Assembly (NCBI GenBank): GCA_004347685.1
Contig: SLTJ01000024.1
Span: 40,622 to 104,621, forward strand
Direction: 5' to 3'
DNA length: 64,000 nt
DNA from: Clostridia bacterium
GTDB lineage: Bacteria; Bacillota; DSM-521; Neomoorellales; SLTJ01
The notes beneath the pieces were generated by a model that was given only the letters and a program-made list of their open reading frames with translations, was not told where the DNA came from and searched no databases. Shown here piece after piece: positions 1-19,110 of this stretch (position 1 is the first letter of the stretch; each line of letters opens with the position of its first letter). The position numbers and the translations under genes are program-made.

Positions 1-245
1 GGGTCGGGAAACTTAAATTTCGTCTTGTATACAGGGTCAAGGTTGTTAAGGAACGATGCCGAAAAGACATCCCTGGAGGCATGCCCATCATCTTCATAAC
101 CCCACTGATTTCCATGTCCACCCGCCCGCGAGTTATATCTGAGAAACCGCGCACTACATTTTCCAAACATGTGGAGCAGCGCCGCGATCTCGCCCATGAG
201 GATGGCCTCTTTGTGCGCTTCAATCTTTTTTAAAAGATCATGCAT
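1..245 (-). CDS. Partial CDS (5' end only, runs off the window): possible Cas10/Cmr2-like type III large-subunit N-terminus
   Basis: Absent from the ORF track because it is truncated. My translation from the ATG at 245..243 (ATGCATGA overlap with the upstream TGA at 238..240) reads MHDLLKKIEAHKEAILMGEIAALLHMFGKCSARFLRYNSRAGGHGNQWGYEDDG... and stays open to position 1. AALLH-x-x-GK resembles the Cas10 HD motif (aLLHDiGK), but with HM in place of HD. Confidence 0.35.
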   Translation of the reverse strand, partial: MHDLLKKIEAHKEAILMGEIAALLHMFGKCSARFLRYNSRAGGHGNQWGYEDDGHASRDVFSASFLNNLDPVYKTKFKFPD

Positions 246-1374
246 GGTTGGCCGCCTCCTTCTTTTGGCCAATCAGGCGCTCTACCACCATCTCAAGATC
301 GGTAATATTGTAGATTTGTTCCTCGTAGGCCGCTATTTTGCCGGTACGCCGGCACACCCATTCCTTGCCGTGCTCCTGATACCAGGACTTAAAAGCTTCA
401 AAGATAGCTGTGTCGCCTTCGCGGCGTTTCCTATATTGGCTCTTGCTGAGAGGATTACCGTCGATACCAAGGTAATCACTTTTTACGGCGCCCTGGTCGT
501 CCATAAACTTAAGGAAGGCTACATCGGGTTCCAGGAAAGATTGCTGTCCGGCTTCACTTGTCAAGGCCCCTTTAATTATCAATTTTCCGTTTTCCGGGCC
601 CAGCTCGTTCTGCGCTATGCCCCAGCCGGCGGTTTTCTTAGCCGAAAAACCGTATTCCAGCAGCATGGCTTTTACTGCTTCCGCACTGGCCTGGAGGTCC
701 TCGACTATCTGTTCCGCAGACCAGTCCTTACCCCTGGGATACGGGATGTAAAGCAAGCAAAATATACCCTTTGTCCCTGCTGGGACGACCTCGATGTTGA
801 TTGGTGCCCGGCCCTGGACCGGGGTACGAGTATCACGGTATAGTGGCGTGGCCACCGCCCTGGCAATGTGGCCTTGTTCGTCTTTGCTAACGCTATCCCA
901 AAAAGTGGGGAAGAAGTGCAGCCTGCCGGCTTGTCCGCTCTCGCCCCCCCGGCTGGAGCCGAAAAGTCGGTTGATAGTCGTTTCTTCAATGCCCGCCATA
1001 CCCGCGGCAAAACGCAGATGCCCTTTCCAAGTGGTCGGCTGCACCAGAGGTAAACCGGTCAAGTGGTCCAGGGCGAGGGGGTTATGCATTTCCAACCATC
1101 TTCCTTCGCGTTCTTCAAAAGGATGAAATTCATCCTCAGCCTTGCTGCTAAAAGGTTTGGCCAAATTGAATTCAAGCCGCAAAAGCCAGGAACCAGCAGG
1201 CAACTCCTCAACATCGGCCTTGGTTGGCAAAAACCGGTGTAATTCAGCCCTCCATTCTTCGGCGGCTTTTTCAGCTTCAGAACGGAGCCGATTGCCGAGG
1301 GTGCGTTTCCCGTTTTCTGCGAAATCGGCACCCTCCTCAGTAAGGTACGCATCAAATATGCGCCTTTGCGCCAT
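238..1374 (-). CDS. cmr6: RAMP superfamily protein, Cmr6-like (Cas7 group), with a C-terminal extension
   Basis: 378-aa ORF. PTTWKGHLRFAAG, LFGSSRGGESGQAGRLHFFPTF and the later TAGWGIAQ glycine loops fit RAMP/Cmr6-type signatures. The ATG lies 9 nt after the upstream stop. Confidence 0.6.
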   Translation of the reverse strand: MAQRRIFDAYLTEEGADFAENGKRTLGNRLRSEAEKAAEEWRAELHRFLPTKADVEELPAGSWLLRLEFNLAKPFSSKAEDEFHPFEEREGRWLEMHNPLALDHLTGLPLVQPTTWKGHLRFAAGMAGIEETTINRLFGSSRGGESGQAGRLHFFPTFWDSVSKDEQGHIARAVATPLYRDTRTPVQGRAPINIEVVPAGTKGIFCLLYIPYPRGKDWSAEQIVEDLQASAEAVKAMLLEYGFSAKKTAGWGIAQNELGPENGKLIIKGALTSEAGQQSFLEPDVAFLKFMDDQGAVKSDYLGIDGNPLSKSQYRKRREGDTAIFEAFKSWYQEHGKEWVCRRTGKIAAYEEQIYNITDLEMVVERLIGQKKEAANHA

Positions 1375-1383
1375 GAGCCTTCA

Positions 1384-2622
1384 TCACCCCTTTCCTCCTT
1401 CAACAAGAAGCCCCATTATGTCTGCCGGATATAGAGCAATTCGAACGGCCAGGCCGCCTAAGGCTGCCTGCACTTCAGTTTTGAGCCGGTTCGTATCCGT
1501 AAGGAGCATACGTAGCGCCTTGTCTGCCTCGTTGCCGTCACGGGGTATAAAGCCAAAAATACGCATGGTCCACTGTTGGTTACAACTATCTCTATAAAGG
1601 TGGGTTACAAACACGTCAGAGCCTTTGGGACGATCCTTTGAGGTTTTATCTACAATCTTAAGGTAGGGATCACCCCAAGGCGAGTTGGTTGTCCCCATAA
1701 TCCGGTGCCTTTCGATGGCGAGAGTTTCTTCGTCATACCGCGAAAAGTTACTGGGGGCCCTTAGCCGTTGTCGCAATTGCGCGCGCACGGCCGGGGCGGA
1801 AGGCAGCCAGTTCGTCGTTGCTACCGGAAGCCACCGTCTATAGTTAGCAGTATTTGCGGTAAGGCCAAGCTTTGGCCAGATCTCTTCCGAAGTGAGCTTG
1901 GCATCCTCAAGGATAACCGTAGCTCCAACCAGATTTCTAATGTCCGGTAGGCTTATTGCCTTCTTTGAGGTGTCATTTTCTGTATCAGATTCATGGGCTT
2001 CTGGTTCCTGCTTCAGCCGCTCCTTTTTGTCCAAGACGTCATACCATTTATCAAAATCCATAGAGACTGGCAGGTCATCACCCCAATCCTTGACCCTGAT
2101 CACACCCTGTCCCTGGCTTGTCTTCGCCCCCAGTGCCCCATACCGCTCAATCAGACGAAGGGTATAGTGCAGGGAAGTCCTCTCTACTTCTCTCAGGCCG
2201 CCATGGCGCATGTGCAGCAACGAAAGGCGCAACGGTTCAGCACTTTTTTCCGCCGGGATTCTCCAACCACGGTGCTCGCTGCTGCCTGGATTACTGAGCT
2301 TTATCTCCAGCAGTTCGCCCGTATTGCTGTTGTTATCTTCACTAATTACCAGCCGGAACCGCCGGCTGTAGCCCGTGCAACCGAAGAGTTGGCAAGCCGG
2401 GCAAATGCTCGCCAGCTTACTTTTTCCATTATATAGACACGCTCTCTGGCTGGGGTCGCAGACATGAAACCCCAGCCCACGCAAGATGGCTTCATACCAC
2501 CACCTGAGGGAGCCCAAGATGCCGGTTTCCAAAATGTTTCCCCCTTTTTTCTCAGCATTTGCGGTCCAAAGGGGGGTAAGAAGTTCAATCTGTAACGGCC
2601 TTATTCCCACCTCATCCTTCAA
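1384..2622 (-). CDS. cmr1: RAMP superfamily protein, Cmr1-like
   Basis: 412-aa ORF. LLTPLWTANA..GSLRWWYEAILRG and CPACQLFGCTGYSRRFRL are Cmr1-type motifs, and a second RAMP-like half ends in MRIFGFIP. The track start is the TTG at 2622. The GTG at 2610 (after AAGGATGAG) is more plausible and lies 1 nt after the methyltransferase TGA at 2612..2614. Confidence 0.6.
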   Translation of the reverse strand: MKDEVGIRPLQIELLTPLWTANAEKKGGNILETGILGSLRWWYEAILRGLGFHVCDPSQRACLYNGKSKLASICPACQLFGCTGYSRRFRLVISEDNNSNTGELLEIKLSNPGSSEHRGWRIPAEKSAEPLRLSLLHMRHGGLREVERTSLHYTLRLIERYGALGAKTSQGQGVIRVKDWGDDLPVSMDFDKWYDVLDKKERLKQEPEAHESDTENDTSKKAISLPDIRNLVGATVILEDAKLTSEEIWPKLGLTANTANYRRWLPVATTNWLPSAPAVRAQLRQRLRAPSNFSRYDEETLAIERHRIMGTTNSPWGDPYLKIVDKTSKDRPKGSDVFVTHLYRDSCNQQWTMRIFGFIPRDGNEADKALRMLLTDTNRLKTEVQAALGGLAVRIALYPADIMGLLVEGGKG

Positions 2623-4804
2623 CTCCTGTTCTTGTCAACGCTTGGTCGTACCACATGAGGAGCTTGGGGTCTTCCTGGAGGACATTTTCGGGAATCTTGC
2701 GGGCTACGGTGATGATGGTGGCGTAGTCGCGCTCCTGCCAGGCCTTTTTGAACCCGGCGCGGACGGCCTCCAACCGGAACACCTTCAGGCGCTTTTGCTT
2801 GGATTCCCGGTACTCCTCAAACTCGCGCAGCAGGGCCCGCTCGCGCAGCTTTTCCAGGTCGCCGGCTTTATTCGGGTCGGGCACGTACCAGCGGTCCTTC
2901 GATCGAGTACTGAGTGATGAGGACTGAGGACTGAGTGAAGAGAACTGCAGAGCACCGTTTTCTTCACGAGCGCGACCAGAAGCTAGTTCCTCCTGGATGA
3001 TCTTGCGCATCTCTTCGCTTTGCTTGAGCCAGGAGATAATTTGCGCTGGTACCGGCCCCTGGCCGTCGTAGCGCAGGAAGTTCTGCTCCAGCAGCTCGGA
3101 AAGCTCCAGGGTTTTTTCGTGCTTCAGCCAGCCGCCTTGGGTTTCCCGCATGAACTGGGGCTGGAGTTCCTGGAGGGTCTGCGGCTTTTTTGTAAGCTGC
3201 TGCTTGAGCCATTGGATGGCCGAGGATTCGTCGGTGACAAAGAGTGAAAGCTGCAGCACCTCTTTCACGGTCATGCGCTTCTTGTCGTACTCAGCCACTT
3301 GGTCGGGAAGGAAATACATTCCGTCCCGCTCGGGGAAACGCTGGGTAAGCCCGGTGTAGAACTCGCCTGCAGACAAGGGAACGGTAACCCCGCGCTGGAC
3401 GTGGAAGGCGACCATGCGGTCAAAGAGCAGGTAGTTTTGCCGCTCGGCGATGACTTCAAGATGTTGTACAATGTCCAATGTATCTTGGGCAAGGTCGAAC
3501 TGACTCTGGACCTTGGACCTTGGACCGGAGACCACGGCAACCGGTAGTTGCTTAAGGTGGGTGCGAATGAAATCCCAGACGCCTGCTTCAGTACCTGCTT
3601 CTAGCTTGAAGCGTTCCTCAAGACCGCCGTTGGGCTTGTAGGCGGAGATGACAAGATCCTGCTTAACGGCGGTGCTAGTCACCTGGCGGTAGGAACCTTG
3701 CTGTTTATCCAGCGTTCGCACGTCGGCCACGACAAACCCGGCAGCCTGTATCGCCTCCTGAATGGCGTTCCAGACGGCGTTGCGCGAGTTGTGGAACTCA
3801 ATGGTTATCCAACGGCCTGGCTTGAGGACGCGATATGCCTCCGAGAAAGAAGCAGCCATTATACCTCCATATCGAGAGAGCGTTGTCGGGTTTACAGTCC
3901 GTGCTCTATGAACAACCGCCTCCACAGAGTCATTGGTTGCGATACGGAGCCACCCCTCCCAGATCGAATTGAGATCCGCATAAAAGAGATTGCCGCCGAA
4001 AGGAGGGTCCGTGAAAATGTAGTCTACCGATGAAGATGGAACCATGCTCAAATCGGTAGCTGACCCCGTTGTGATGGCGCATGTTTCATTGCGGGGAACC
4101 AGATTCCATGCTTGTGTAATATCTTGCGCTTTATCGGCGATTAGCCGAAAGGGGTTTTGCTCTTTTTGCAGACTCGGGATCGTGAGTTTTCCTTGTTGTC
4201 CGCCTCCTCCTCCGCTCCGATACCTGTACCTTTGAGAAGCCAGCCATTGACAGGACGTAAGAATAAAGAGAACTCCTTTTCGTGTAGAAAATGTGGGGAT
4301 TGAGCAGGCAATATCCCATATCCGGCCGAGGGTGATGAGATTACGTCGGGTGTAGAAATCCGAAACGCATACAATCCCTCGGAGGTGAAGGGCATCTCGC
4401 TTATATTGTTCGGAGTCTGGGTTGAGATTTAGGGTTGGGCATGATTTGGGCAGCGTATGTAGCGCTATCTTACGGAGTACCTCATGATCGCCGGGACTGA
4501 GTGGTCGAATTGACCTCCCCTTTCCTTTTCCAGCTTCCAATGCAATGGGTGCTTTCTTAATGCGCTTCACTTTAACGCCATGATGGGTAAACGCGGTCTC
4601 TATCTGCCTGTCAAGAGACGATTTCTTAAGATTCGCATTGCAGTGAGGGCACGAGAAGTTTTCCTGGACCGTTCCAGAGTCCTCATCCAGAGCTGCCTCC
4701 CAAAATATGATGTCGCCCTGACATTGAGGGCAGAAGAAGACGTCTGACCAAATAGTGAAATTGATTTCTGATTGAATGGATGGAGTACTTTCACTGATAT
4801 ACAT
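2612..4804 (-). CDS. pglXI: DNA methyltransferase, catalytic/C-terminal part (PglXI-like N6A/N4C MTase with Zn-ribbon insert)
   Basis: 730-aa ORF. Zn ribbon CPQCQG..CPHCN, catalytic motif DYIFTDPPFG, and a long helical C-terminus. The AdoMet motif is carried by the overlapping ORF 4791..5513 in another frame, so the two look like one gene of about 970 aa. Confidence 0.75.
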   Translation of the reverse strand: MYISESTPSIQSEINFTIWSDVFFCPQCQGDIIFWEAALDEDSGTVQENFSCPHCNANLKKSSLDRQIETAFTHHGVKVKRIKKAPIALEAGKGKGRSIRPLSPGDHEVLRKIALHTLPKSCPTLNLNPDSEQYKRDALHLRGIVCVSDFYTRRNLITLGRIWDIACSIPTFSTRKGVLFILTSCQWLASQRYRYRSGGGGGQQGKLTIPSLQKEQNPFRLIADKAQDITQAWNLVPRNETCAITTGSATDLSMVPSSSVDYIFTDPPFGGNLFYADLNSIWEGWLRIATNDSVEAVVHRARTVNPTTLSRYGGIMAASFSEAYRVLKPGRWITIEFHNSRNAVWNAIQEAIQAAGFVVADVRTLDKQQGSYRQVTSTAVKQDLVISAYKPNGGLEERFKLEAGTEAGVWDFIRTHLKQLPVAVVSGPRSKVQSQFDLAQDTLDIVQHLEVIAERQNYLLFDRMVAFHVQRGVTVPLSAGEFYTGLTQRFPERDGMYFLPDQVAEYDKKRMTVKEVLQLSLFVTDESSAIQWLKQQLTKKPQTLQELQPQFMRETQGGWLKHEKTLELSELLEQNFLRYDGQGPVPAQIISWLKQSEEMRKIIQEELASGRAREENGALQFSSLSPQSSSLSTRSKDRWYVPDPNKAGDLEKLRERALLREFEEYRESKQKRLKVFRLEAVRAGFKKAWQERDYATIITVARKIPENVLQEDPKLLMWYDQALTRTGVEG
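2905..2942. repeat. Low-complexity repeat inside the methyltransferase coding sequence, related to the 12116..12148 arm
   Basis: gagtactgagtgatgaggactgaggactgagtgaagag. The 18-mer tgagtgatgaggactgag (2911..2928) is identical to 12122..12139. In frame, it encodes SSLSPQSSSLST. Confidence 0.7.
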
Positions 4805-5513
4805 CCATCCGATCTCGTTTGACTTGCTTGATTATCTTCTTCAAGGAATGGTTTACTGAAGAGCTATCTGCAACACGGCAGTAGTTCGATGAAATGAATG
4901 TAGCAGCAGGAGCAAGGTCATTAAGTATCGGCCTCCTCGCCCCTATCTTTCCGATAACGATGTTATTCAAGTCCCTGATCAAGCCATCCGGCGTAACTTT
5001 GTAGCCAAGCGACTCGATAGTAAAACGTTCACCGCATAGCAGCGAGGCTACTCCCGTCATCCCGGTTCCACAGAACCCGTCAAAAACGACATCCCCCGGT
5101 TCGGTATAATGCAGGATGTACCGCATGATTGCCTTATGCGGCACCTTTGTATGGTAGGAGTGGGCGTTATAGATCGGGTCGTTCTTCCCCTCACTCACGT
5201 CCGCGGCAAACGGCTCACGGCCGTAAGGTATATTCGGGTCATACGGCTTGCCGTAGTACCTGATAAAATCCTCTATGAACGGGTTCGGGCAGGCGGTATA
5301 ATACGGCGGGTCGGACAGGGCCAGGATGTCCTCATCCGAGCCTATTGGGAGCCCCTCAATTTTGCGAAACTCCGGGTCCTTCAGCTTTTCTCGCAGAAGA
5401 CCAAGGAAATGTTCCCGCCGAGCGTTGTCATCTGGGAATGTCATCCCAAGGCATTCAACGGGACCGGTTGGCACGGTTCCTGTTTCGGGATTGAAAAGGC
5501 TCTCCATAGTCAT
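4791..5513 (-). CDS. pglXI: DNA methyltransferase, N-terminal part (AdoMet-binding region), frame-shifted relative to 2612..4804
   Basis: YHTKVPHKAIMRYILHYTEPGDVVFDGFCGTGMTG corresponds to the H-x-T-x-KP plus FxGxG region of N6_N4 MTases. The likely start is the ATG at 5513..5511, which overlaps the herA TGA at 5510..5512 (ATGA). The track start at 5582 would overlap herA by 73 nt. Confidence 0.7.
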   Translation of the reverse strand: MTMESLFNPETGTVPTGPVECLGMTFPDDNARREHFLGLLREKLKDPEFRKIEGLPIGSDEDILALSDPPYYTACPNPFIEDFIRYYGKPYDPNIPYGREPFAADVSEGKNDPIYNAHSYHTKVPHKAIMRYILHYTEPGDVVFDGFCGTGMTGVASLLCGERFTIESLGYKVTPDGLIRDLNNIVIGKIGARRPILNDLAPAATFISSNYCRVADSSSVNHSLKKIIKQVKRDRMDVYQ

Positions 5514-7252
5514 GCTCTGTTTTGCCTCCGCATATTTTCTACCGCTTTTGCGAAGTCCGGAGAATCCGGTTGTTTGCTCCATTCATCCCAGAAATCAATC
5601 GTGGCGCTTAGAGGTTTTTCGTTTGGCGGATGGATTCTAATACGGCTGGGTAACAAGACGGCATCGCCAACAACCAACGCCTCGCCAATGTCCAAAATCG
5701 ACAGTGTTTCCATCAACCCTTCCAAACTCTCCGGCATAAGTTTCCGGACTGTGGCTTGGTCGTCACCATTAGTTAGGCGAAGGGCTATCACATTGTTGCA
5801 TTGACTGAGGATTGTCGCGCTCACATCAGATGGACGCTGGCTGACGACAAGCAACGCAACCCCATACTTTCTGCCTTCTTTCGCTATTTTCTCGAAGTTC
5901 TCAATGGCACGTTGTTCGACGGGATTTCTGCCTTCCTTCTTGGGCAGGTACAAGTGCGCCTCGTCGCACACGAAAGCCATCGGCTTGCGTTTGTCGCGGT
6001 CGCTCCAGAATTGCACTTGATAGATGATGCGCGCCACAAGCCCCACAATAACCGGCAGGATATCTGCCGGGACTTCGGAAAAATCGATGACCTTGATTTG
6101 CGCTTTTGACCCGGAATAATCCATCAGCCGCTTCATCATGTCAGCCATAGAATCGTATTGGTTCTCTGATTCAGGTGATTGGAACAGAAAACCATAGCGC
6201 TTATCACTTACTTTACTATTGAGACGAGGAATCAAGCGATCAAACTCGCCGTTGAAAGGACCCTTTTTCTCGGTGTTAGGTTTTGCCCCTGGAACCATTT
6301 GCTCATTAAGTTCCTTAAGTTTGGCAATGACGTTTTGAATTGAAAAAGGGATTGGGCTATCGAGAGTAAATGCATTCAGCACTTCTTCCTTCTTGAGTAT
6401 TTCGAGCGTTTTTTCCTTCTCCGCGACAACTGTATCCTGAAATGCCATTACCTGGTTGTGGGCGCTGAATTCGCTACGGTCGATGAACATGGCCTGCATC
6501 TCCTCGGTATTAAGGAGCCAATAAGGTAAGTATAACAGCGATGGATCGTCTTTGCCCAATTCTTCCGGTCCTGGAATGCGCAAATGGCGTGCATAGGAAA
6601 GTTCTCGATATTCTCCGTGAAGATCAAATATGATCAGGTTCGCCGATGGGAGTTTCGCGGCTTGTTCAAGAATAGCTGCAACCGTCCAGGATTTGCCGGA
6701 TCCTGTGCTTCCCAAGATTGAGGCATGACGCTGAAAAAACTTGTTCCCGTCCAGATAGGCCGTTGCGTTCTCATCAATGGTATATCGGCCCATTTCCAGG
6801 GAGTGGGCAGTACAGCCTTCCACGGAAAGTAAGTTCATAAAAGCTTGCAGTTGCGCATCGCGCAGAATGTAGCATTCGCCGTCAATCTCGGGTACCTGAA
6901 CGAGAGAACGAGAAAAGCGTGGCCTACTATCTTTGTCTAGTCCAACCGTTCCAACCAAGGTTAGACGTACGGTATTCATTACGCTTTCTCGCGGCAGGAA
7001 CAATTCGGTTACCTCATCGGTGCCCTGTAATCCGGTATCTGTCTCGTCCTCAAGAACAGGTGTTTTTATCACCTTATCTATGATACCGATCAACCATTCC
7101 TCAAGAGCGCCAGGTAAGGCAAGAGCAACCAATTGGCCGACACGCGCTTTTCGTAAATCCTCATCGCTGTGAACCTGAATATTCACTCTACGAGTATCAA
7201 CAGTGCGGACCTTCCCTAGAGAATATGAAGCGTCAAAAGTAAAAAACGCCAT
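5510..7252 (-). CDS. herA: HerA-like (DUF87/FtsK-HerA superfamily) ATPase, partner of SIR2
   Basis: Walker A ILGSTGSGKSW and Walker B FVCDEAHLY, with a HerA-type N-terminal barrel region. I chose the start at ATG 7252 (AGGAGGGTAAAC upstream), 2 nt after the SIR2 stop. Confidence 0.8.
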   Translation of the reverse strand: MAFFTFDASYSLGKVRTVDTRRVNIQVHSDEDLRKARVGQLVALALPGALEEWLIGIIDKVIKTPVLEDETDTGLQGTDEVTELFLPRESVMNTVRLTLVGTVGLDKDSRPRFSRSLVQVPEIDGECYILRDAQLQAFMNLLSVEGCTAHSLEMGRYTIDENATAYLDGNKFFQRHASILGSTGSGKSWTVAAILEQAAKLPSANLIIFDLHGEYRELSYARHLRIPGPEELGKDDPSLLYLPYWLLNTEEMQAMFIDRSEFSAHNQVMAFQDTVVAEKEKTLEILKKEEVLNAFTLDSPIPFSIQNVIAKLKELNEQMVPGAKPNTEKKGPFNGEFDRLIPRLNSKVSDKRYGFLFQSPESENQYDSMADMMKRLMDYSGSKAQIKVIDFSEVPADILPVIVGLVARIIYQVQFWSDRDKRKPMAFVCDEAHLYLPKKEGRNPVEQRAIENFEKIAKEGRKYGVALLVVSQRPSDVSATILSQCNNVIALRLTNGDDQATVRKLMPESLEGLMETLSILDIGEALVVGDAVLLPSRIRIHPPNEKPLSATIDFWDEWSKQPDSPDFAKAVENMRRQNRA

Positions 7253-7254
7253 GT

Positions 7255-8355
7255 TTACCCTCCTAATATTTCTTTTGTAAACTGTGAGATATCCCAAAGG
7301 ACCTTTTCAGGTATGGATAGCCAGTTTGCATACATTTTGTTAAATATGCGTGTTCCGTTACTGTTTGCTTCCTGTGATTTGCAAACAAGCCATAGATTTG
7401 CGGCCTGTAAAAGCAAGGATTCGATGCGAGGATTGGAATCCCGAGTGATAATCAGCCCTGCACAGCCCTGATTTACGAGTTTGCGCTTTATGTACTCTTC
7501 AATGTGCTTATCATTGAAGCCATACCCAAGGAAAAGAAAATGGTGTTCCCGCTCAATAGCGATATCGGCCTTGCTTAGAAGTTCTTGCCTATAGCGTTGC
7601 AGTGTTTCATACTTCGATAAGCCCGGAGTAATCATGACCCGTTGAGCGAAATCGGGTGGATTCCACATCCAAGCATTATTTTCAATCACCACTCCCTGAT
7701 GGAAAAAGTAGTTGAGAGAGCCATGAACTTTATAGAGCCGGACGTGCTTCCGGTTTTTATACGTTGGTTTCATTTTCCCTCGTTGGTAAACTCGTTCGGG
7801 GGATAACAAGGCTCGTTCCACAGCATCCCAATCGATTCTACGCTCAACCCCTCCGACAAATCCGTTTGTATACGGAATGCCAGAGTGATCACAGGCATAT
7901 TCAAACAACATGTCGTAATTCGGTGTGAGAACATGCAGGATTCTGTCGCCTTCCGGAAGTCCACCGACTAGTCGCTTCAGAAAGTGGGTCGCGGGCCACT
8001 CGATTTCGCCATTAGCAATTCGAAAAGCGTACTCGCGGTCAACCGAAGCAACAAAGCACCCTGTAATAGCAGTGATTTTCTGCAACAAAGCGTAATCAGA
8101 AACGCCATCTAAAGCGGATTCCAAATCTGTCCCGCTCCGAAGAGATTGCATAACTCTGTCCCATTCCTCTTGCTGTGTTCTTTTTAGCGAATGTCCGTTC
8201 ATCTGACACAAGAGTTCATCTCTTAGGGCATCCATCCCAAATCGATTGTCCAAAGCGCAAGACATTCCTGTACCAAAGAAAACAAATGGTTTCTCTCGGA
8301 AAAAATTTCTTAGCGCTTCGGCAGCAATATTATAGGTCAAATCGTCTTTACACAT
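7255..8355 (-). CDS. SIR2-like (SIR2_2) NADase-family defence protein
   Basis: FFGTGMS, TPNYD, KVHGS and FLGYGFND motifs match the SIR2_2 layout. The ATG lies 3 nt after the brxC-like stop. Sits directly upstream of herA, as in SIR2-HerA antiphage systems. Confidence 0.75.
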   Translation of the reverse strand: MCKDDLTYNIAAEALRNFFREKPFVFFGTGMSCALDNRFGMDALRDELLCQMNGHSLKRTQQEEWDRVMQSLRSGTDLESALDGVSDYALLQKITAITGCFVASVDREYAFRIANGEIEWPATHFLKRLVGGLPEGDRILHVLTPNYDMLFEYACDHSGIPYTNGFVGGVERRIDWDAVERALLSPERVYQRGKMKPTYKNRKHVRLYKVHGSLNYFFHQGVVIENNAWMWNPPDFAQRVMITPGLSKYETLQRYRQELLSKADIAIEREHHFLFLGYGFNDKHIEEYIKRKLVNQGCAGLIITRDSNPRIESLLLQAANLWLVCKSQEANSNGTRIFNKMYANWLSIPEKVLWDISQFTKEILGG

Positions 8356-8358
8356 ATT

Positions 8359-10224
8359 TCACTCCAATACAATCCGGACTTTTCCGGGTTCTTTGCCCTT
8401 GGTGAGTTGCTCCAGGTATTCCTCAAACCTCTTCTTCATCTCCGCCGGGGTGACCGGTGAGCCGCCAGAGAGCAGCGCCGCGCGCAGGTCGGCAGTCTTG
8501 ACCGATACCTTAAGCAGCCCGGAGAGCACTTCTTTTAGGGCGTGGATGAAATCCTGGTCAAGGTCGTCCGGCAGCGAGCGTTTTTTGATGAAGCCGTCTA
8601 CCAGCTTCCGCGGCTCGGGCTTGAGCAGATCCAAGTTGGCCCGCGTAGTCGGGTCCTCCAGGTTGGTAAGAAGCGTCTGGGTCCAGTTCTCCACCAGCTT
8701 GTCGAGCTCCTCGTCCAGACCGTCCAGCACCGAGCTTGCCGGCGCCGCCGGTGGTTCCGCGGCAGGCTTGTAGTTGCAATGCGGACAAACGGGCGAGGCG
8801 TCAAGGTCCGGCTCGGTGAGCGCGAAGCAGCTCTTTAGACCCGCCAGGCGGTTCTGGTAATCGGTCAGGTGTTGGCGGGGCATGAGGTCAATAGTGGAGA
8901 GTTTTTGCAGGACTTTCAATCGTTCATCCCCCATGAGCCTGGCTTTAGGCTTATCCTCGTTAACGCCCAATCTCGCCTTGGTGTGTAATCCCAGGTACAC
9001 CTGCAGGTAGGCTTTTTTCAGGTCAGAGAGCTTGCGCTGAGTCTCCTGGCGGAAGGCTGCCGCGCCGCGCTTAGCTGGGTCGCCGATCTGTCCGAGGACA
9101 TCTTCGCGCACCGCCTTCATCTTGTCCATCCACTCGTGCCCGCCGGGCAGAACCGCCTCGGCCGTGGAAAGATACGCTGCCATGACCCCGAGGCCGGTCA
9201 CCAGTTTCTGAAGAGAATCAATCTCTTCCAAGGCCTGAAGCCCGTCGCGATGGCCGCTCACCTCTTGGGCTTCGTAACGGAAGTTCTTGAGCTTACCGGG
9301 AGATGTATAGGCCTGGATTGATTCCAGAAAGGTCTTGGTCTCATTAAGCTGGGAGCGCAGCTTCTGAACTTCACTCTCGGCCAGTAAACTCCGGCCCCAG
9401 AAAGACAGGCCTTTTTGCACGCTCTGATGAACAAGTACTAACCTTTCCACCGTGCTGGTTATTGCTTTCTGCAGCTCGTGAACGGGTTCTTCTTTCCCCT
9501 GGGTGACCAGCTGCGCCATGCCTGGTGTGAGCCTGAGCAGCTCAAACAGGGCCTTCAACGCCGGCAGGTTCCAGTCTTTAGGCCGCTCGATGTGCTTGAA
9601 CTGGGTCAGTTCCTCGACGCCGGTCCCGGCCAGTTGGGGAAGCCCTGTGGCGTCGAACTTCTTGCCTGGAATGGCCAGTACCAGCTCGCCGGAGTAAACC
9701 AGTGCCGCCAGGACCACCACGGCCCATTCAGGCTCCAAACGCAGGGTCTGCGGGGCCAGGTATTCCACCCCGAGGATGTCTTGGATCAGCTCAGAGCGGT
9801 TGACCACTTGGCCGGGGCCCTTCTTTTTCGCGATGTCGAGGATGTGCTGGGCGTATTTCGAACGATATGGATCAAGCCTGTCGCCGTCGAGAAGCTCAAG
9901 GGCATCCAGCACCGCGGTTGCTTGCTTGGTCGGCTTTTGCCCCGCGATGGCCCGCAGCGCGTCCTGGGCGGCCTGGGCCCGGTTGGCTCCGGTGATGAGC
10001 ACCGAGAAGCAGGGGTATTCAGGAGCCTGGTCCTGGAAGTACGCCCCGAAACAGATACCGGCGATGGTGTTTATGAGGTCGCGAAAGTTGATCCGCTCGT
10101 TAGGGGCAATGCCGGAAAGCTCGCGGATTGATTTACCCTTGGCCCAATCAACGAGGGGCTTGGTACGCCCCTGGTAGGTTACCTCGAAGGCCGTAATCAT
10201 GTTTTCCCGCAGCCACTGCACCAA
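8359..10224 (-). CDS. brxC: BrxC/PglY-like giant ATPase, C-terminal half (downstream of an in-frame TAG)
   Basis: Same frame as 10366..12087. Codons 10365..10225 are open and read [47 protein letters not shown], running straight into the track ORF. Contains CPHCNYKP and ends in GKVRIVLE. Confidence 0.6.
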
Positions 10225-10365
10225 TTCCCGCAGGAAGCCCGACGCCTTGGATTCATAAACGGACTTGGCCTGCCCCGAGGCGGTGGAAGCCAGATCAAGG
10301 GCCGCGGCATACCCCCGCAGTACTGTGTGAAAGGCTTCATCCTTGTTTATAAGACGCAGGAATAC

Positions 10366-12087
10366 CTAGTCGGGCTTCTTTTCATCCGTGAAGCGCGGCG
10401 CATCGAAGGGCTGGATGAAGTAGAGGTAGAAGTCGCGTGGCGGAACGGCTGTGGAGCGCTCGTTGGGCGCGCCGAAAAAGAGGTACCCCTGGCGCGCGGC
10501 TTTCCGCTCCAGCCATTCCAGCTCGTGTTGCCAGATTTTATAGCCGGTGACGTAGGTCTGGTCTGTGCACTCCATCACCCGTTTCAAGGCCTCGTAGTAG
10601 TAGCGGTCCAACTGGGAGGCATCCAAACTCTCGGCGCGCTTTTCGATCAGGGCGTCGAAGTCATCAGTCTTCTTCAGGTCGAGGTAATACTGGCGGTTGT
10701 CCGGGTTCGATGAGATAAACTGGCCACTCACCGTCTTGTGTATTTCCCGCAGGACAGTTTCCACCTGGGAAAGCAAATCGTCGGCCGGATCGCCGCCCAG
10801 GTCCTCGATGCCGGGCTGGTAGAGGCAGAGGCTGTCGCGCAGTTCCTCCGCCGTTGCGCCCAGAGGGGCGTGGATATCGCCTGTAGTCAACCGGTGAACG
10901 GATAAGGCATGGACCAGCCGCAGCGCCATGGGCTTGTAGGCGGGCCGGGTGAAGGCCTGCTGGATGCGGGCCTCCAGCACCTGGCTGCAGTCGATTACCG
11001 CCTTGATGTCCGGCACTGCGCGGAAGGAGGAGTTTTCACAGAGGTTCAGCCAGTAGCTGTCGTAGGCGATCAGCCCCGGGCGGTCGTCCGGGATATCTTG
11101 ATTAAGCAACCTCTTCATGGATAGGGAAAGGGTCTTGAGCACCTCGCGTTTCTCCGCCGCGGTGACCCGCTCAAAGGTGTCAATGTAGTCGGGATGCACC
11201 GGGAAGAGGCGGACAAACTCGTCCATGCGCTCATTCATGCGCCCGTAGAACTTTGAAAAGGGAGTCAGGTATGCGCGGATTTTCGCCTGCTGTTCGCCGG
11301 TTTTTTTGAGAAGCCGCTCGGATACCACGAACTTGACGTCCTTGCGCGCAATCAGGATTTGCTCGAAACGGTCCTTGACCCGGCGGATACTGTCCGCCAC
11401 GAAGGAAAAGCGGGGGCTGTCAAAAATGGCCTCCTGCACACCGGCGATAAAGCGGAAGCGCAGGTCCTTGCAGACTTCGCCGATCTCCCGGAGGAAGTTC
11501 AGGTCGAGGATAAGTTCCTGATCTTTGCGTGTGCGGAGGTAATCGAGCAATTCATCCACCACCAGGAGCAGGCCATGGTCAGGGTATTCCTGGTGGAAGG
11601 CGGACATCATCTCCTCGAAGGCCCTCTTGTTGTTGGATACTTGCGCCGCTGATGGGAATGTGTAGGTCACTCCTAAGGCCGCCAGGTGCCCCTCCAGTTC
11701 AGCCACTAGGATGTCACGCAAGGACATAGTGGTCGCCCCGATTTCGGTTCGCACCACCTTGAAACGGCCTCCGATTTTGCCCGCGGCGCTGGCAACGTGG
11801 CTATCGTTAAGATGGGAAGAAAGTTCCCCGTTCTCCGCTACGGCGGATATCACCGACATTAGATGAGACTTACCAGTACCGTAGTTGCCGACGACCAGCA
11901 GCCCCTTGTTATCGGTCGGCTGGTCAAACTGAAGCTGGGGAATGACGAGGTTTATCAGCCTCTCAGCCATCTCCTGGGAGATGACATAGGTCTGGACAAA
12001 CTGCCGGGCGGCGGCGGCTTCGTCGGCTTCCCGCAATTGCACTACGGACTCGATAGGTTCGAACTGGATTAGGTCTCCATATTTCAT
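10366..12087 (-). CDS. brxC: BrxC/PglY-like (DUF6079-type) giant ATPase, N-terminal P-loop half, ends at the in-frame TAG 10366..10368
   Basis: [23 protein letters not shown].., Walker [10 protein letters not shown], Walker [12 protein letters not shown]. The start ATG at 12087 is preceded by GGGGGGAACGCG. The first 27 track codons derive from a repeat arm. Confidence 0.65.
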
Positions 12088-12115
12088 CGCGTTCCCCCCA
12101 TGCGGTTTTGCCTGT

Positions 12116-12191
12116 AAGTGATGAGTGATGAGGACTGAGTGATGAGTGTATGTGTCTTTCCTAATCACCCATCACTTTCCACTCATCACTT
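12116..12191. repeat. Low-complexity inverted repeat (perfect 12-bp arms) spanning the brxF stop and the brxF-brxC spacer
   Basis: aagtgatgagtg (12116..12127) is the exact reverse complement of cactcatcactt (12180..12191). The arms are built from gagtgat/gaggact units. The right arm encodes the last codons of brxF. Confidence 0.75.
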
Positions 12192-12660
12192 CTGATTTCT
12201 CCGGACTAACGATCAGCAAATCACTGATCACGTATCGCCGGTATTCAGGGTGTTCCGGCATGGCATAGGTCAAATGGCCACTGTTGGCAGATCCGTTCCA
12301 GGCCACGACCAGCGTCTTGTTTCGTGAAAGTCCTTGGAGGAGCCGCAGAGGGTCCTGTTTGAGGGACACATCAAACAGCAATTCAATGTTATCGAGCAGA
12401 ACCAGGTCACCGCCAGCAGCGTTCACGATCTCTGAGAGCAGGCGGGGAAGCTGCAGTGCCCGCTGGCGCCCGGTGAGTTCAAGCAGGCGGCGAGACAACT
12501 CCAGATTGACGTTGATAAGAGGCGCGCCCGTACGTTCGTGAATATCTTGAAGCGCGGTTGTTTTCCCCGCTCCGGCTGGGGCCACTATGATGATGAGGCG
12601 GTGGTACAGCTCGGCAGCCAGGCCAATTCTATGTATTACCTGATCCGCAAGAATCTCCAT
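12172..12660 (-). CDS. brxF: BREX type 3 small P-loop protein BrxF-like
   Basis: 162 aa. Walker A APAGAGKTT, then NVNLELSRRLLEL and LLDNIELLFD..DPLRLLQGLSRN, matching the BrxF pattern as I recall it. First gene of the island operon. Confidence 0.6.
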   Translation of the reverse strand: MEILADQVIHRIGLAAELYHRLIIIVAPAGAGKTTALQDIHERTGAPLINVNLELSRRLLELTGRQRALQLPRLLSEIVNAAGGDLVLLDNIELLFDVSLKQDPLRLLQGLSRNKTLVVAWNGSANSGHLTYAMPEHPEYRRYVISDLLIVSPEKSEVMSGK

Positions 12661-13522: not shown

Positions 13523-13798
13523 ATGGCGATAGTAAGCAAGCTGGCGGCAATTATGGGTGAACGTGGGATAAGGCATATCAGTGGGCTTTCTGAGCAAACA
13601 GGCATAGCGAGGAGCACTCTTACAAAGTTGTGGTACAACAGGGTTAAGGGAGTTACCTTTGATATGCTGGAGAAGTTATGTGAAGTCCTGGAGTGCCAAC
13701 CCGGCGATTTGCTGGTCTACGAGCCCGACAACGCCCAGGACGGCCAGCAGGGCACTGACTGGGCTAGGAGCAGAAAGGTGAGGAACCAAGAACGGTAA
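13523..13798 (+). CDS. XRE/Cro-C1 family helix-turn-helix transcriptional regulator
   Basis: 91 aa. LSEQTGIARSTLTKLWYNRVKGVTFDMLEKLCEVLECQPGDLLVY is a typical short XRE HTH. Confidence 0.7.
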   Translation: MAIVSKLAAIMGERGIRHISGLSEQTGIARSTLTKLWYNRVKGVTFDMLEKLCEVLECQPGDLLVYEPDNAQDGQQGTDWARSRKVRNQER

Positions 13799-14069: not shown

Positions 14070-14145
14070 TGGTGAGCCATCCGGGACTCGAACCCGGGAC
14101 ACCCGGATTAAAAGTCCGGTGCTCTACCGGCTGAGCTAATGGCTC
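14070..14145 (-). tRNA. tRNA-Lys (anticodon UUU), CCA encoded
   Basis: Hand-folded reverse complement: gagccat/atggctc acceptor stem, anticodon loop CTTTTAA, T-arm ccggg-ttcgagt-cccgg, 3' ACCA. Confidence 0.9.
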
Positions 14146-14162
14146 ACTTGTTCCTTATCGGC

Positions 14163-14236
14163 TGGCTGGGGCGGCTGGATTCGAACCAACGATGGCGGAT
14201 CCAAAGTCCGCTGCCTTACCACTTGGCTACGCCCCA
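14163..14236 (-). tRNA. tRNA-Gln (anticodon UUG), CCA encoded
   Basis: Reverse complement tggggcg...cgcccca-g-cca. Anticodon stem gcgga/tccgc with loop CTTTGGA, and a T-loop ttcgaat. Confidence 0.85.
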
Positions 14237-14240
14237 GCGC

Positions 14241-14318
14241 TGGGGTGGGTGAAGGGAGTTGAACCCGCGACCTCCAGGGCCACAACCTGGCGCTCTAACC
14301 AACTGAGCTACACCCACC
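14241..14318 (-). tRNA. tRNA-His (anticodon GUG) with G-1, CCA encoded
   Basis: Reverse complement ggtgggtgtagctcagttggttagagc.. Anticodon stem ccagg/cctgg with loop TTGTGGC, extra 5' G, 3' ..cacccacccca. Confidence 0.85.
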
Positions 14319-18279: not shown

Positions 18280-19110
18280 TCATGTGTAAACTATGGGGTG
18301 CATCCTCACCTGGCCGTGGTGGTAATGGCCGAAGCGGTTAAACCCGGCGGCCTCCAGGGTGGCCAGGCCGGTGGACAGGTCAGCTCCCACATCTTCCGGC
18401 CGGTGGGCGTCAGAACCGAGGGTGACTATTTCTCCGCCCAAATCCCGGTACCACCGGAGAATGGTCAATCCGGGCAGGGTATCGCCCAAGCCCTGGCGGA
18501 TCCCGGAGGTATTTACCTCCAGCCCGATCCCCCGCGCGATCGTTTCCTGCAGGATGGCGGTTATTATTTCCCGGAAGCGTTCTGCTTCCAGGGGATAGGC
18601 GTGGTCCAGGTATCTTTTCAGGAGATCCAGGTGGGCCAGAACGTGAAAATTGCCGGCCCGCACGGCCAGCAGTACCTCGGTGAAGTAATCCTGGTAGGCC
18701 TCTTGCCCGGAACAATGCTGACCAAATTCCAGGTGCAGGGCCTCCTTTCCCACCCAGTGGACTGAGCCCAGCAGGAAATCAACTTCTTCGCCGGATTTGC
18801 CGGAAAGAAAGGTCTCGATAGCTTCTCGGTAGAGGTGTGGTTCTCCCAGTTCAAGCCCCAGGCCGATCTCCAGCCTCCCGGCAAACTCCCGGCGCGCGGC
18901 CTCCACTTCCTGGGCGTAGCGGGCAAAATCCAGGTGGTCGAACCCCTCGGCCGCGGGGTTGAGGTCATAGTGTTCGGTAAAGGTAATCCCTGTCAGCCCG
19001 GCCGCGAGGGCGGCCCGGCAGTAATCATGTACCTGTCGTCTCCCGTCTATGGAGTGGTGGGAATGCACGTGACAATCAGCAAGCCACAAAGAACGGTTTA
19101 CCCCCTCCAA
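18280..19110 (-). CDS. PHP-domain histidinol-phosphatase family protein
   Basis: CHVHSHHSIDG, FTEHYD, GSVHW, SDAHRPEDVG, which are PHP metal-binding motifs. The exact start is uncertain (TTG). Confidence 0.7.
   Translation of the reverse strand: MEGVNRSLWLADCHVHSHHSIDGRRQVHDYCRAALAAGLTGITFTEHYDLNPAAEGFDHLDFARYAQEVEAARREFAGRLEIGLGLELGEPHLYREAIETFLSGKSGEEVDFLLGSVHWVGKEALHLEFGQHCSGQEAYQDYFTEVLLAVRAGNFHVLAHLDLLKRYLDHAYPLEAERFREIITAILQETIARGIGLEVNTSGIRQGLGDTLPGLTILRWYRDLGGEIVTLGSDAHRPEDVGADLSTGLATLEAAGFNRFGHYHHGQVRMHPIVYT

What the first reader, a model, noticed from the sequence alone, without database searches (positions are those of the whole stretch)
1..2622. Type III-C-like gene order (cmr1, cmr6, cas10) with no array in view and a Cas10-like HD motif reading HM
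A Cmr1-like RAMP is followed by a Cmr6-like RAMP and then a large-subunit-like start. That is the order I associate with subtype III-C rather than III-B. The visible 81 codons of the third gene carry AALLHMFGK where Cas10 HD domains have (a)LLHDIGK, so the catalytic Asp appears to be missing. No repeat-spacer array, cas6 or cas1/cas2 occurs anywhere in the 64 kb. The first RAMP gene starts within a few nt of the methyltransferase stop, which suggests the module is expressed as part of the BREX-like operon. This could be an array-less or trans-acting type III effector recruited to a modification-based system.
Basis: partly seen in the sequence, partly recalled or inferred. Interest (0 to 1): 0.7.

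Follow-up and report, generated by a model that had tools for sequence, protein, structure and literature searches.

The report
Type III-C CRISPR cassette inside decayed BREX

Summary
On the minus strand, cmr1 (1384-2610/2622), cmr6 (238-1374) and the first 81 codons of a Csx11-family Cas10 (3-245) follow the pglXI stop codon directly. An identical public contig (L001) extends past window position 1. It shows the full cassette: cmr1-cmr6-csx11-cmr4-cmr5-cmr3. That order was found wherever the contig was long enough among 67 other Csx11 loci.

The HM-for-HD reading is correct but belongs to a whole clade. Of 120 Csx11 cluster representatives, 58 have HM together with CH..TSADEKG. Another 36 have HD together with CD..DSADDKG. 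None is mixed. The GGDD cyclase motif is absent from all 27 aligned Csx11 sequences.

The window has no array, cas6 or cas1/2, and neither do the 8.6 kb beyond it. This is normal for III-C, both in published work and in the relatives examined here.

Recruitment by BREX is not supported. In this genome brxC carries a TAG stop, pglXI is frameshifted, brxHII survives only as a 29-aa remnant and no pglZ was found. The position after pglXI holds different defence cargo in related loci. The same cassette also nests inside type I CRISPR operons elsewhere.

The most likely function is crRNA-guided RNA cleavage by Cmr4, with guides supplied in trans. This is a new member of a known kind, of modest interest.

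The parts
3..245 (-). 5' end (81 codons) of csx11/cas10, the III-C large subunit. Carries AALLHMFGK in place of the HD motif. The gene continues beyond window position 1 (full length 1007 aa on L001:11130-14153).
238..1374 (-). cmr6 (Cas7-family RAMP, 378 aa)
   Evidence: PADLOC Cmr6 5.6e-45; Pfam RAMPs 1.1e-9; 88% identical to its L073 orthologue
1384..2622 (-). cmr1 (RAMP, 408-412 aa). Start is GTG 2610 or TTG 2622, abutting or overlapping the pglXI stop.
   Evidence: TIGR01894 1e-16, above cut-off; PADLOC Cmr1; gene call on L001
2612..5582 (-). pglXI (BREX type 3 methyltransferase), split into ORFs 4791-5582 and 2612-4804 by a net 2-nt deletion near 4817. Probably inactive.
   Evidence: PADLOC PglXI 1e-107 and 5.3e-278; nearly all listed homologues are single proteins of about 920-1180 aa; junction alignment
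5510..8355 (-). herA (5510-7297) and sir2 (7255-8355). An intact SIR2-HerA defence pair inserted between brxC and pglXI. GC 46.9%.
   Evidence: PADLOC HerA 1.6e-229, SIR2 5.8e-151; GC; absent from L083 and L081
8359..12168 (-). brxC (DUF6079-type), interrupted by an in-frame TAG at 10366-10368 (GAG in relative L083)
   Evidence: PADLOC BrxC
12172..12660 (-). brxF
   Evidence: PADLOC BrxF 1.7e-73
13523..13798 (+). Cro/C1-type HTH gene at the edge of the island
   Evidence: Pfam HTH_26 6.5e-22
14070..14317 (-). tRNA-Lys, tRNA-Gln and tRNA-His cluster marking the boundary between the defence island and housekeeping genes
   Evidence: housekeeping genes beyond

Best explanation
The window holds the first 2.3 genes of a complete six-gene subtype III-C CRISPR-Cas effector cassette: cmr1, cmr6, csx11/cas10, cmr4, cmr5, cmr3. 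It belongs to a widespread Csx11 clade in which the Cas10 HD site is remodelled (HM plus CH..E) and the cyclase motif is absent.

The cassette has no array, cas6 or adaptation genes of its own. It sits in the variable cargo slot between pglXI and brxHII of a type 3 BREX locus that has since decayed in this genome.

Inferred mechanism:
- The complex is loaded with Cas6-processed crRNAs made from an array elsewhere in the genome.
- It binds complementary transcripts and cuts them with the Cmr4 backbone, whose catalytic Asp is retained.
- It produces no cyclic-oligoadenylate signal and has no HD DNase.
- Transcription probably runs through from the upstream operon, because no gap or terminator separates pglXI and cmr1.

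Shown here: identity, completeness, motif states, context, purifying selection. Inferred: guide source, RNA cleavage, co-transcription.
For: Identity and completeness:
- Csx11 scores 409 bits (cut-off 249) and Cmr4 133.8 bits (cut-off 87).
- The best Cmr5 match is a III-C-specific model, and Cmr3 scores 3e-64. Cmr1 and Cmr6 are supported.
- The Cas10 fold is confirmed.
- The same gene order appears wherever the contig is long enough among 67 Csx11 loci.

Motifs:
- HM/CH..E occurs in 58 Csx11 cluster representatives and HD/CD..D in 36, with none mixed.
- The GGDD position reads xxSP[VL] or a similar non-GGDD sequence in all 27 aligned Csx11. A weak palm2 match maps it.
- The Cmr4 catalytic Asp is kept: GRVDMSIV against P. 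furiosus GVVDQPIQ.

Selection:
- dN/dS is 0.19-0.41 for all six genes against L073.

CRISPR membership of the HM clade:
- L007 has cas1, cas4, csa1 and a 10-repeat array.
- L084 is nested in a type I locus that includes cas6, and L087 in a type I-D locus that includes cas6, cas1, cas2 and cas4.
- Repeats next to HM-clade loci end in ACTGAAA[G/C].

Array-less state is normal:
- 14 of 67 loci have an array within the held flank. Among the 13 with adequate flank, 6 do.
- PMC12669027 and PMC11229360 say the same.

Cargo slot and decayed BREX:
- Intact relative L083 reads brxF-brxC-pglXI-[PDDEXK_3]-brxHII-pglZ-brxA.
- L081 and L082 carry PDC-M23 and PDC-S68 after pglXI.
- In L007 a pglXI 3' remnant and a brxHII 5' remnant flank the cassette.
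- The window has the brxC TAG and the pglXI frameshift, and L001 has only a brxHII remnant at 18900-18986.
Against: - The rest of the genome could not be read, so no array, cas6 or crRNA source has been shown for this organism.
- The contig that extends the window ends 3.7 kb after cmr3. An array or pglZ further on cannot be excluded.
- The brxC stop and the pglXI frameshift rest on assemblies that probably derive from the same reads, so a sequencing error is not excluded.
- No III-C system was found to be experimentally characterised in the searched library. RNA cleavage as the only output is therefore inference from III-A and III-B.
- The strict conservation of the remodelled HM site suggests a retained function that this model does not explain.
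- The pglXI-cmr1 junction recurs in L073, L070-72 and L007. pglXI and the cmr genes share a GC of 53%, against 58% for brxF-brxC. This is more linkage than random island packing would give.
Confidence: 0.72

Rival explanations
1. The III-C effector has been functionally recruited by the BREX type 3 system. It is co-expressed with pglXI and acts with, or in place of, the brxHII-pglZ-brxA effector arm, possibly without its own guides.
For: - The pglXI stop and the cmr1 start are adjacent or overlapping.
- The same junction is present in L073 (77% Cas10 identity). It is present with a 2-kb insertion in L070-72 (70%), and as a remnant in L007 (51%).
- pglXI and the cmr genes share a GC of 53% and a history distinct from brxF-brxC.
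- brxHII and pglZ are missing where the cassette sits.
Against: - brxC and pglXI are themselves disrupted here, while the cmr genes are intact and under purifying selection.
- The closest full-length pglXI genes (74-76% identity) are followed by other cargo and not by cmr.
- Cas10 relatives at 48-57% identity show no BREX genes.
- L088 (76% identity) has no pglXI tail in the 214 nt upstream of cmr1.
- The cassette also nests inside type I CRISPR operons.
- A 2026 BREX survey (PMC12839542) contains no occurrence of 'Cas10' or 'RAMP' and no CRISPR partner in the passages retrieved.
Confidence: 0.1
2. The cassette is an orphan in this genome. It has no usable crRNA source and is a silent or decaying passenger of a dying defence island.
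For: - No array, cas6 or cas1/2 was found in 72.6 kb.
- Neighbouring genes are broken: brxC, pglXI, the brxHII remnant, and an apparently frameshifted ORF at L001:16343-16851.
Against: - All six cmr ORFs are intact.
- dN/dS is 0.19-0.41 against L073, with dS 0.2-0.39.
- Catalytic and invariant residues are retained.
- Array-less III-C loci are the rule, and such type III loci are generally thought to use arrays in trans (PMC12669027; PMC11229360 notes in-trans sharing between CRISPR-Cas loci).
Confidence: 0.13
3. The HM/CH..E site is a new active or ligand-binding centre. It would give this III-C clade an output other than RNA cleavage, for example a different metal-dependent activity or an effector-docking site.
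For: - HD-to-HM is perfectly coupled with CD-to-CH and DD-to-DE. There are 58 representatives with one state, 36 with the other and none mixed.
- The motif is near-invariant down to 45% identity, and the same pattern recurs in distant cyanobacterial Csx11.
- The N-terminal domain is modelled with high confidence.
Against: - No activity data exist.
- No conserved accessory gene follows the cassette.
- The coupling could simply stabilise a metal-free fold.
Confidence: 0.05

Closest known systems
Subtype III-C CRISPR-Cas (Csx11-type Cas10; formerly MTH326-like)
   Same: - Csx11 family Cas10 scoring above the curated cut-off.
- Gene order cmr1-cmr6-cas10-cmr4-cmr5-cmr3.
- No GGDD cyclase motif.
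- No ancillary cOA effectors, and no array or adaptation genes in the locus.
   Different: Nothing categorical. This member belongs to the HD-less half of the subtype (HM/CH..E clade). It lies inside a BREX locus, not beside a type I locus or an array.
Subtype III-B Cmr complex (e.g. Pyrococcus furiosus Cmr1-6)
   Same: - Same six subunit families.
- The Cmr4 catalytic Asp is conserved.
- It often relies on Cas6 and arrays encoded elsewhere.
   Different: - III-B Cas10 (Cmr2) normally has an active GGDD cyclase and often an HD nuclease.
- The gene order differs.
- The Csx11 profile found no sequence relative among solved structures.
Type 3 BREX (brxF-brxC-pglXI-brxHII-pglZ-brxA)
   Same: brxF, brxC and pglXI are present in canonical order. 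BrxC is 87% identical to that of an intact locus (L083).
   Different: - brxC has a stop codon and pglXI a frameshift.
- brxHII is reduced to a 29-aa remnant, and pglZ and brxA were not found.
- Two foreign systems are inserted: SIR2-HerA and III-C.
Defence genes embedded as cargo in BREX and other defence loci (variable slots in defence islands)
   Same: Related loci carry different defence genes at the same two positions, brxC|pglXI and pglXI|brxHII. The GC content is mosaic.
   Different: The cargo here is a whole CRISPR type III effector cassette. This was not mentioned in the BREX survey consulted (PMC12839542).

Membership tests
Subtype III-C CRISPR-Cas effector module | Large subunit of the Csx11 family (TIGR02682) | tested here: met
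   409.4 bits, E 3.9e-122, curated cut-off 248.95. An identical protein is named Csx11 by NCBI.
Subtype III-C CRISPR-Cas effector module | Cas10 fold of the large subunit | tested here: met
   The AF2 model has pLDDT 86.9 and pTM 0.88. The top 50 Foldseek PDB hits are all Csm1/Cas10/Cmr2 chains, best E 1.7e-8 and TM 0.42-0.56.
Subtype III-C CRISPR-Cas effector module | Gene order cmr1, cmr6, cas10, cmr4, cmr5, cmr3 | tested here: met
   L001 gene calls and family matches. The same order is seen in 67 Csx11 loci wherever the contig is long enough.
Subtype III-C CRISPR-Cas effector module | Cyclase (GGDD) site of Cas10 inactivated | tested here: met
   There is no GGDD or GGDE anywhere in the protein. 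The position just upstream of the palm2 match (residues 750-806) reads AFSPVF, and it reads xxSP[VL] or similar in all 27 aligned Csx11. The mapping rests on a weak HMM match plus motif context.
Subtype III-C CRISPR-Cas effector module | RNA-cleaving Cas7 backbone (Cmr4 catalytic Asp) | tested here: met
   TIGR02580 at 1e-38, above cut-off. The Asp aligns with D26 of P. furiosus Cmr4. The numbering D26 comes from my own knowledge.
Subtype III-C CRISPR-Cas effector module | Use of crRNA from a CRISPR array (own or in trans) | not testable with these tools
   No array was found in the window or L001. The rest of the MAG was not retrievable. HM-clade relatives do lie next to arrays, cas6 or cas1.
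HD-nuclease-active Cas10 | His-Asp dyad and downstream acidic ligands of the N-terminal HD domain | tested here: not met
   The protein has H25-M26 and CHRMTSADEKG, where HD-type Csx11 have HD and CDxxDSADDKG.
Type 3 BREX (functional system) | Intact brxF, brxC, pglXI, brxHII, pglZ and brxA | tested here: not met
   brxC has a TAG and pglXI is frameshifted. Only a brxHII remnant is present, and no pglZ or brxA was found in the window or L001. Sequence beyond L001 is unknown.
SIR2-HerA defence system | Adjacent SIR2-domain and HerA ATPase genes | tested here: met
   PADLOC SIR2 5.8e-151 (3-361 of 361) and HerA 1.6e-229 (1-574 of 576).

The most novel reading that the evidence does not exclude
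HM-type III-C cassettes are array-less plug-in modules that probably lack a promoter of their own and spread by nesting inside other defence operons: type I-D, other type I, and BREX type 3 between pglXI and brxHII. Their strictly conserved, co-varying HM/CH..E site would be a new functional centre that replaces HD nuclease activity. The pglXI+III-C block would be exchanged between BREX loci because the two act together.
Probability: 0.12. Interest if true: 0.6.

Novelty: new member of a known kind. Interest (0 to 1): 0.3.

Why it matters
The result mainly closes the question. The locus is a standard subtype III-C effector cassette, and its missing array, cas6, HD aspartate and cyclase motif are all known properties of that subtype.

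Three smaller points could be useful:
- III-C appears to be experimentally uncharacterised, and no solved structure is related by sequence to Csx11. A compact, intact cassette with clear orthologues is a reasonable candidate for biochemistry.
- The HD site is not decaying. It switches between two strictly coupled states (HD/CD..DD and HM/CH..DE), which is a testable hint of a retained role.
- The cassette repeatedly sits inside other defence operons with almost no intergenic space. This includes the pglXI|brxHII slot of type 3 BREX, and illustrates how defence cargo is exchanged.

Tried and rejected
- Exact-protein look-up of the 412-aa cmr1 ORF found nothing, because the public gene call starts at a different codon. 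cmr6 worked.
- The NCBI 175-kb contig of the source MAG could not be reached. Look-ups returned only the 22.7-kb Logan contig, and the MAG is not a species representative in genome contigs.
- The metagenome scan with the single protein gave only relatives at 38-54% identity and no new BREX-linked loci.
- The viral contig scan found no Csx11 relatives.
- I suspected that the high DNA identity of the pglXI 3' end in Pelotomaculum marked a conserved promoter or RNA element. This was rejected. The same stretch is equally conserved in pglXI genes with no cmr downstream, and no promoter-like site was found on the minus strand there.
- Repeats from arrays next to related loci have no match above chance in the window or L001, so there is no stand-alone repeat or mini-array.
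- Genes downstream of pglXI in L081, L082 and L070 share nothing with the sequence downstream of the cassette here.
- The Csx11 profile found no sequence relative among PDB chains. Fold comparison was needed.
- Model coordinates are not exposed, so the geometry of the HM site could not be examined.
Full report
**What is in the window**

All the relevant genes are on the minus strand. Reading in the direction of transcription, they run as follows:
- brxF (12172-12660).
- brxC as two ORFs (10366-12168 and 8359-10224).
- sir2 (7255-8355) and herA (5510-7297).
- pglXI as two ORFs (4791-5582 and 2612-4804).
- A 408-412-aa RAMP (1384-2610/2622) and a 378-aa RAMP (238-1374).
- An ORF that starts at 245 and runs off the window.

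PADLOC and NCBIfam identify the first RAMP as Cmr1 (TIGR01894 at 1e-16, above its cut-off) and the second as Cmr6 (5.6e-45). The 81 visible codons of the third gene read MHDLLKKIEAHKEAILMGEIAALLHMFGKC.... They match the N-terminus of the Csx11 model, and weakly the Cas3'' HD model. The pglXI stop codon is at 2612-2614. The cmr1 start is either one base after it or 11 bases before it.

**Extending past window position 1**

The Cmr6 protein is encoded on a public 22.7-kb contig, fetched as L001. L001 is identical to the window at all 11,374 overlapping bases and adds 8.6 kb.

The third gene is 1007 aa long. It scores 409 bits on TIGR02682 Csx11 against a cut-off of 249. It is followed by:
- Cmr4 (TIGR02580 at 1e-38).
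- A 140-aa protein whose best match is a III-C-specific Cmr5 model (1.2e-26).
- A 305-aa Cmr3 (3e-64).

An identical protein is already named 'CRISPR-associated protein Csx11 [Clostridia bacterium]' at NCBI. The Csx11 profile has no sequence relative among solved structures. A confident AlphaFold model (pLDDT 86.9, pTM 0.88) nevertheless matches only Cas10/Csm1/Cmr2 chains among its top 50 hits. The refutation condition 'the third ORF is not Cas10-like' therefore fails.

**Subtype**

I collected 67 Csx11 loci from species-representative genomes. Wherever the contig is long enough, they show cmr1-cmr6-cas10-cmr4-cmr5-cmr3 in that order. At the position that aligns just upstream of a weak Cas10 palm2 match, the protein reads AFSPVF. 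All 27 aligned Csx11 proteins lack GGDD there. This agrees with published statements that the III-C polymerase/cyclase is inactivated (PMC8730458, PMC12669027, PMC11229360).

**The HM motif**

The family consensus is LLGEIGALLHDxGK. Among 120 cluster representatives the states are strictly coupled:
- 58 have H-M together with C-H...(T)S-A-D-E-K-G.
- 36 have H-D together with C-D...(D)S-A-D-D-K-G.
- None is mixed.

The HM state holds from 100% down to about 45% identity, in Clostridia, Chloroflexota, Aquicultor and Pelotomaculum. It reappears in distant cyanobacterial Csx11. It is thus a clade property under strong conservation, not a lesion of this gene. It matches the published figure that half of III-C Cas10 proteins have no recognisable HD domain (PMC11229360). 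What the remodelled site does is unknown.

**Array, cas6 and adaptation genes**

No array was found in the window or in L001 by tandem-repeat, direct-repeat or k-mer periodicity scans. Rfam found only three tRNAs.

The 57 ORFs tested between 13.5 and 64 kb hit no Cas family in PADLOC. The ORFs after cmr3 are:
- An unassigned, apparently frameshifted ORF.
- An HTH-peptidase M78 protein (RmrA-like).
- A DUF3368/PIN protein.
- A YlcI/VapC pair.

This is normal for the subtype. The classification paper states that most III-B, III-C, III-E and III-F loci lack arrays (PMC12669027). In my sample, 14 of 67 loci have an array within the held flank. Among the 13 loci with adequate flank, 6 do.

The HM clade is nevertheless a bona fide CRISPR clade:
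- In Pelotomaculum propionicicum (L007) the cassette is followed by cas1, cas4, csa1 and a 10-repeat array.
- In Aquicultor (L084) it is nested in a type I locus that includes cas6.
- In L087 it lies between csc1 and cas3 of a type I-D locus that includes cas6, cas1, cas2 and cas4.
- Repeats beside HM-clade loci end in ACTGAAAG or ACTGAAAC. This resembles the usual 8-nt crRNA handle, a comparison that rests on my own knowledge.

**Is the cassette functional?**

All six ORFs are intact. Against the orthologous cassette in L073, dN/dS is 0.19-0.41 with dS 0.2-0.39. Cmr4 keeps the Asp that aligns with the catalytic residue of P. furiosus Cmr4.

The most likely activity is crRNA-guided binding and cleavage of transcripts. 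There would be no cOA signalling and no HD DNase. The guides would have to come from an array and a Cas6 elsewhere in the genome. I could not check that, because only 72.6 kb of this organism was accessible.

**The BREX question**

A related intact locus, L083, shows the canonical type 3 layout:
- brxF.
- brxC (1277 aa, one ORF).
- pglXI (960 aa, one ORF).
- A small PD-(D/E)xK gene.
- brxHII, pglZ and brxA.

Its BrxC is 87% identical to the window's, in a single alignment that runs across the window's stop codon. In the window the locus is damaged:
- brxC carries TAG where L083 has GAG.
- pglXI is a net 2 nt shorter than its closest relatives, which splits it between its SAM-binding and DPPF motifs. 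Nearly all listed homologues are single proteins of about 920-1180 aa.
- brxHII survives only as a 29-aa remnant at L001:18900-18986.
- No pglZ or brxA was seen.

The host system the cassette was supposedly recruited to is therefore apparently dead here, while the cassette itself is intact.

**A cargo slot**

The position after pglXI holds different genes in related loci:
- PDC-M23A/B in L081 (pglXI 76% identical).
- PDC-S68 in L082 (74%).
- A PD-(D/E)xK gene in L083.
- A NucS-like gene plus DUF6236 ahead of the III-C cassette in L070-72.

The brxC|pglXI junction is a second slot. It holds SIR2-HerA here (GC 46.9%), a DUF2188 gene in L081 and nothing in L083.

In Pelotomaculum the cassette is bracketed by two remnants: a frameshifted 164-nt remnant of the pglXI 3' end, and a remnant of the brxHII 5' end. 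It therefore once sat exactly between those two genes. Wadjet genes now lie upstream.

The pglXI-cmr1 junction is also present in L073. It is absent from the 214 nt upstream of cmr1 in L088, and from relatives at 48-57% identity.

GC content and identity patterns suggest that pglXI and the cassette (53% GC; pglXI 61-71% identical to L083) have a different history from brxF-brxC (58% GC; 83-87% identical to L083). There is real, repeated linkage between pglXI and this cassette. It is best explained by shared descent and recombination within a cargo slot. Functional coupling is not excluded, but nothing here requires it.

**Island context**

The island ends at a tRNA-Lys/Gln/His cluster (14070-14317) with a Cro/C1-type HTH gene beside it. 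Beyond that lie housekeeping genes at 59% GC.

**Verdict**

- The subtype call and the 'trans-acting, array-less' idea are reasonable, but they describe the known norm for III-C.
- Recruitment to BREX is not supported.
- This is a new member of a known kind.
- Two modestly interesting side results emerged: the coupled HD/HM switch, and the habit of this cassette of nesting inside other defence operons.

Noticed in passing
window 5510-8355 (-): An intact SIR2-HerA defence pair (GC 46.9%, against 58-59% around it) is inserted between brxC and pglXI. Related BREX loci have nothing (L083) or a DUF2188 gene (L081) at this junction, so it is a second cargo slot.
   Followed up: partly
window 10366-10368 (-) and about 4805-4830 (-): brxC has an in-frame TAG where relative L083 has GAG. 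pglXI is a net 2 nt shorter than L081/L082, which splits it into 263-aa and 730-aa ORFs. Both look like recent point lesions. Read-level support was not checked.
   Followed up: partly
L007 (Pelotomaculum propionicicum) 7535-7694 and 15296-15559: The III-C cassette is flanked by a frameshifted pglXI 3' remnant (84% nt identity to the window) and a brxHII 5' remnant (68% aa identity to L083). Wadjet jetA/C/D lie upstream, and cas1/cas4/csa1 plus an array lie downstream. This is a fossil of a BREX locus deleted from around its cargo.
   Followed up: yes
Csx11 family (P0001-P0120); window 3-245 for this member: There are two strictly coupled states of the N-terminal site. HD goes with CDxxDSADDKG (36 representatives) and HM with CHxxTSADEKG (58 representatives). 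None is mixed, and HM also occurs in distant cyanobacterial members. This suggests remodelling, not decay.
   Followed up: partly
L084 7730-15209; L087 7724-15210: HM-clade III-C cassettes are nested inside type I operons. In L084 the cassette lies after cas3-cas8-cas7-cas5 and before cas6. In L087 it lies between csc1 and cas3 of a type I-D locus, with an 8-nt overlap at the upstream junction.
   Followed up: partly
L001 16343-16851, 16941-17054, 17229-18762, 18900-18986: Four features lie downstream of cmr3:
- An unassigned ORF that appears frameshifted.
- A short duplicate of the C-terminus of the HTH-M78 protein.
- An HTH-peptidase M78 plus DUF3368/PIN pair, 94% identical to the pair that lies upstream of brxF in L083.
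- A 29-aa brxHII remnant.
Together they indicate a rearrangement.
   Followed up: partly
window 14070-14317 (-) and 13523-13798 (+): A tRNA-Lys/Gln/His cluster and a Cro/C1-type HTH gene mark the edge of the defence island. No integrase was seen in the held sequence.
   Followed up: no
window 2612-5582 versus 8359-12660: GC content and identity are mosaic. brxF-brxC have 58% GC and are 83-87% identical to L083. pglXI and the cmr genes have 53% GC, and pglXI is only 61-71% identical to L083 but 76% to L081. The methyltransferase and the cassette seem to have arrived together.
   Followed up: partly
window 14.5-64 kb: The rest of the window looks like housekeeping genes: 2-oxoacid:ferredoxin oxidoreductase, F420-type dehydrogenase subunit, glutamate synthase-like and Fe-S proteins. 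One MotB-like ORF hits the ZorB models, and single ORFs hit MzaA and mad2. None was examined further.
   Followed up: no
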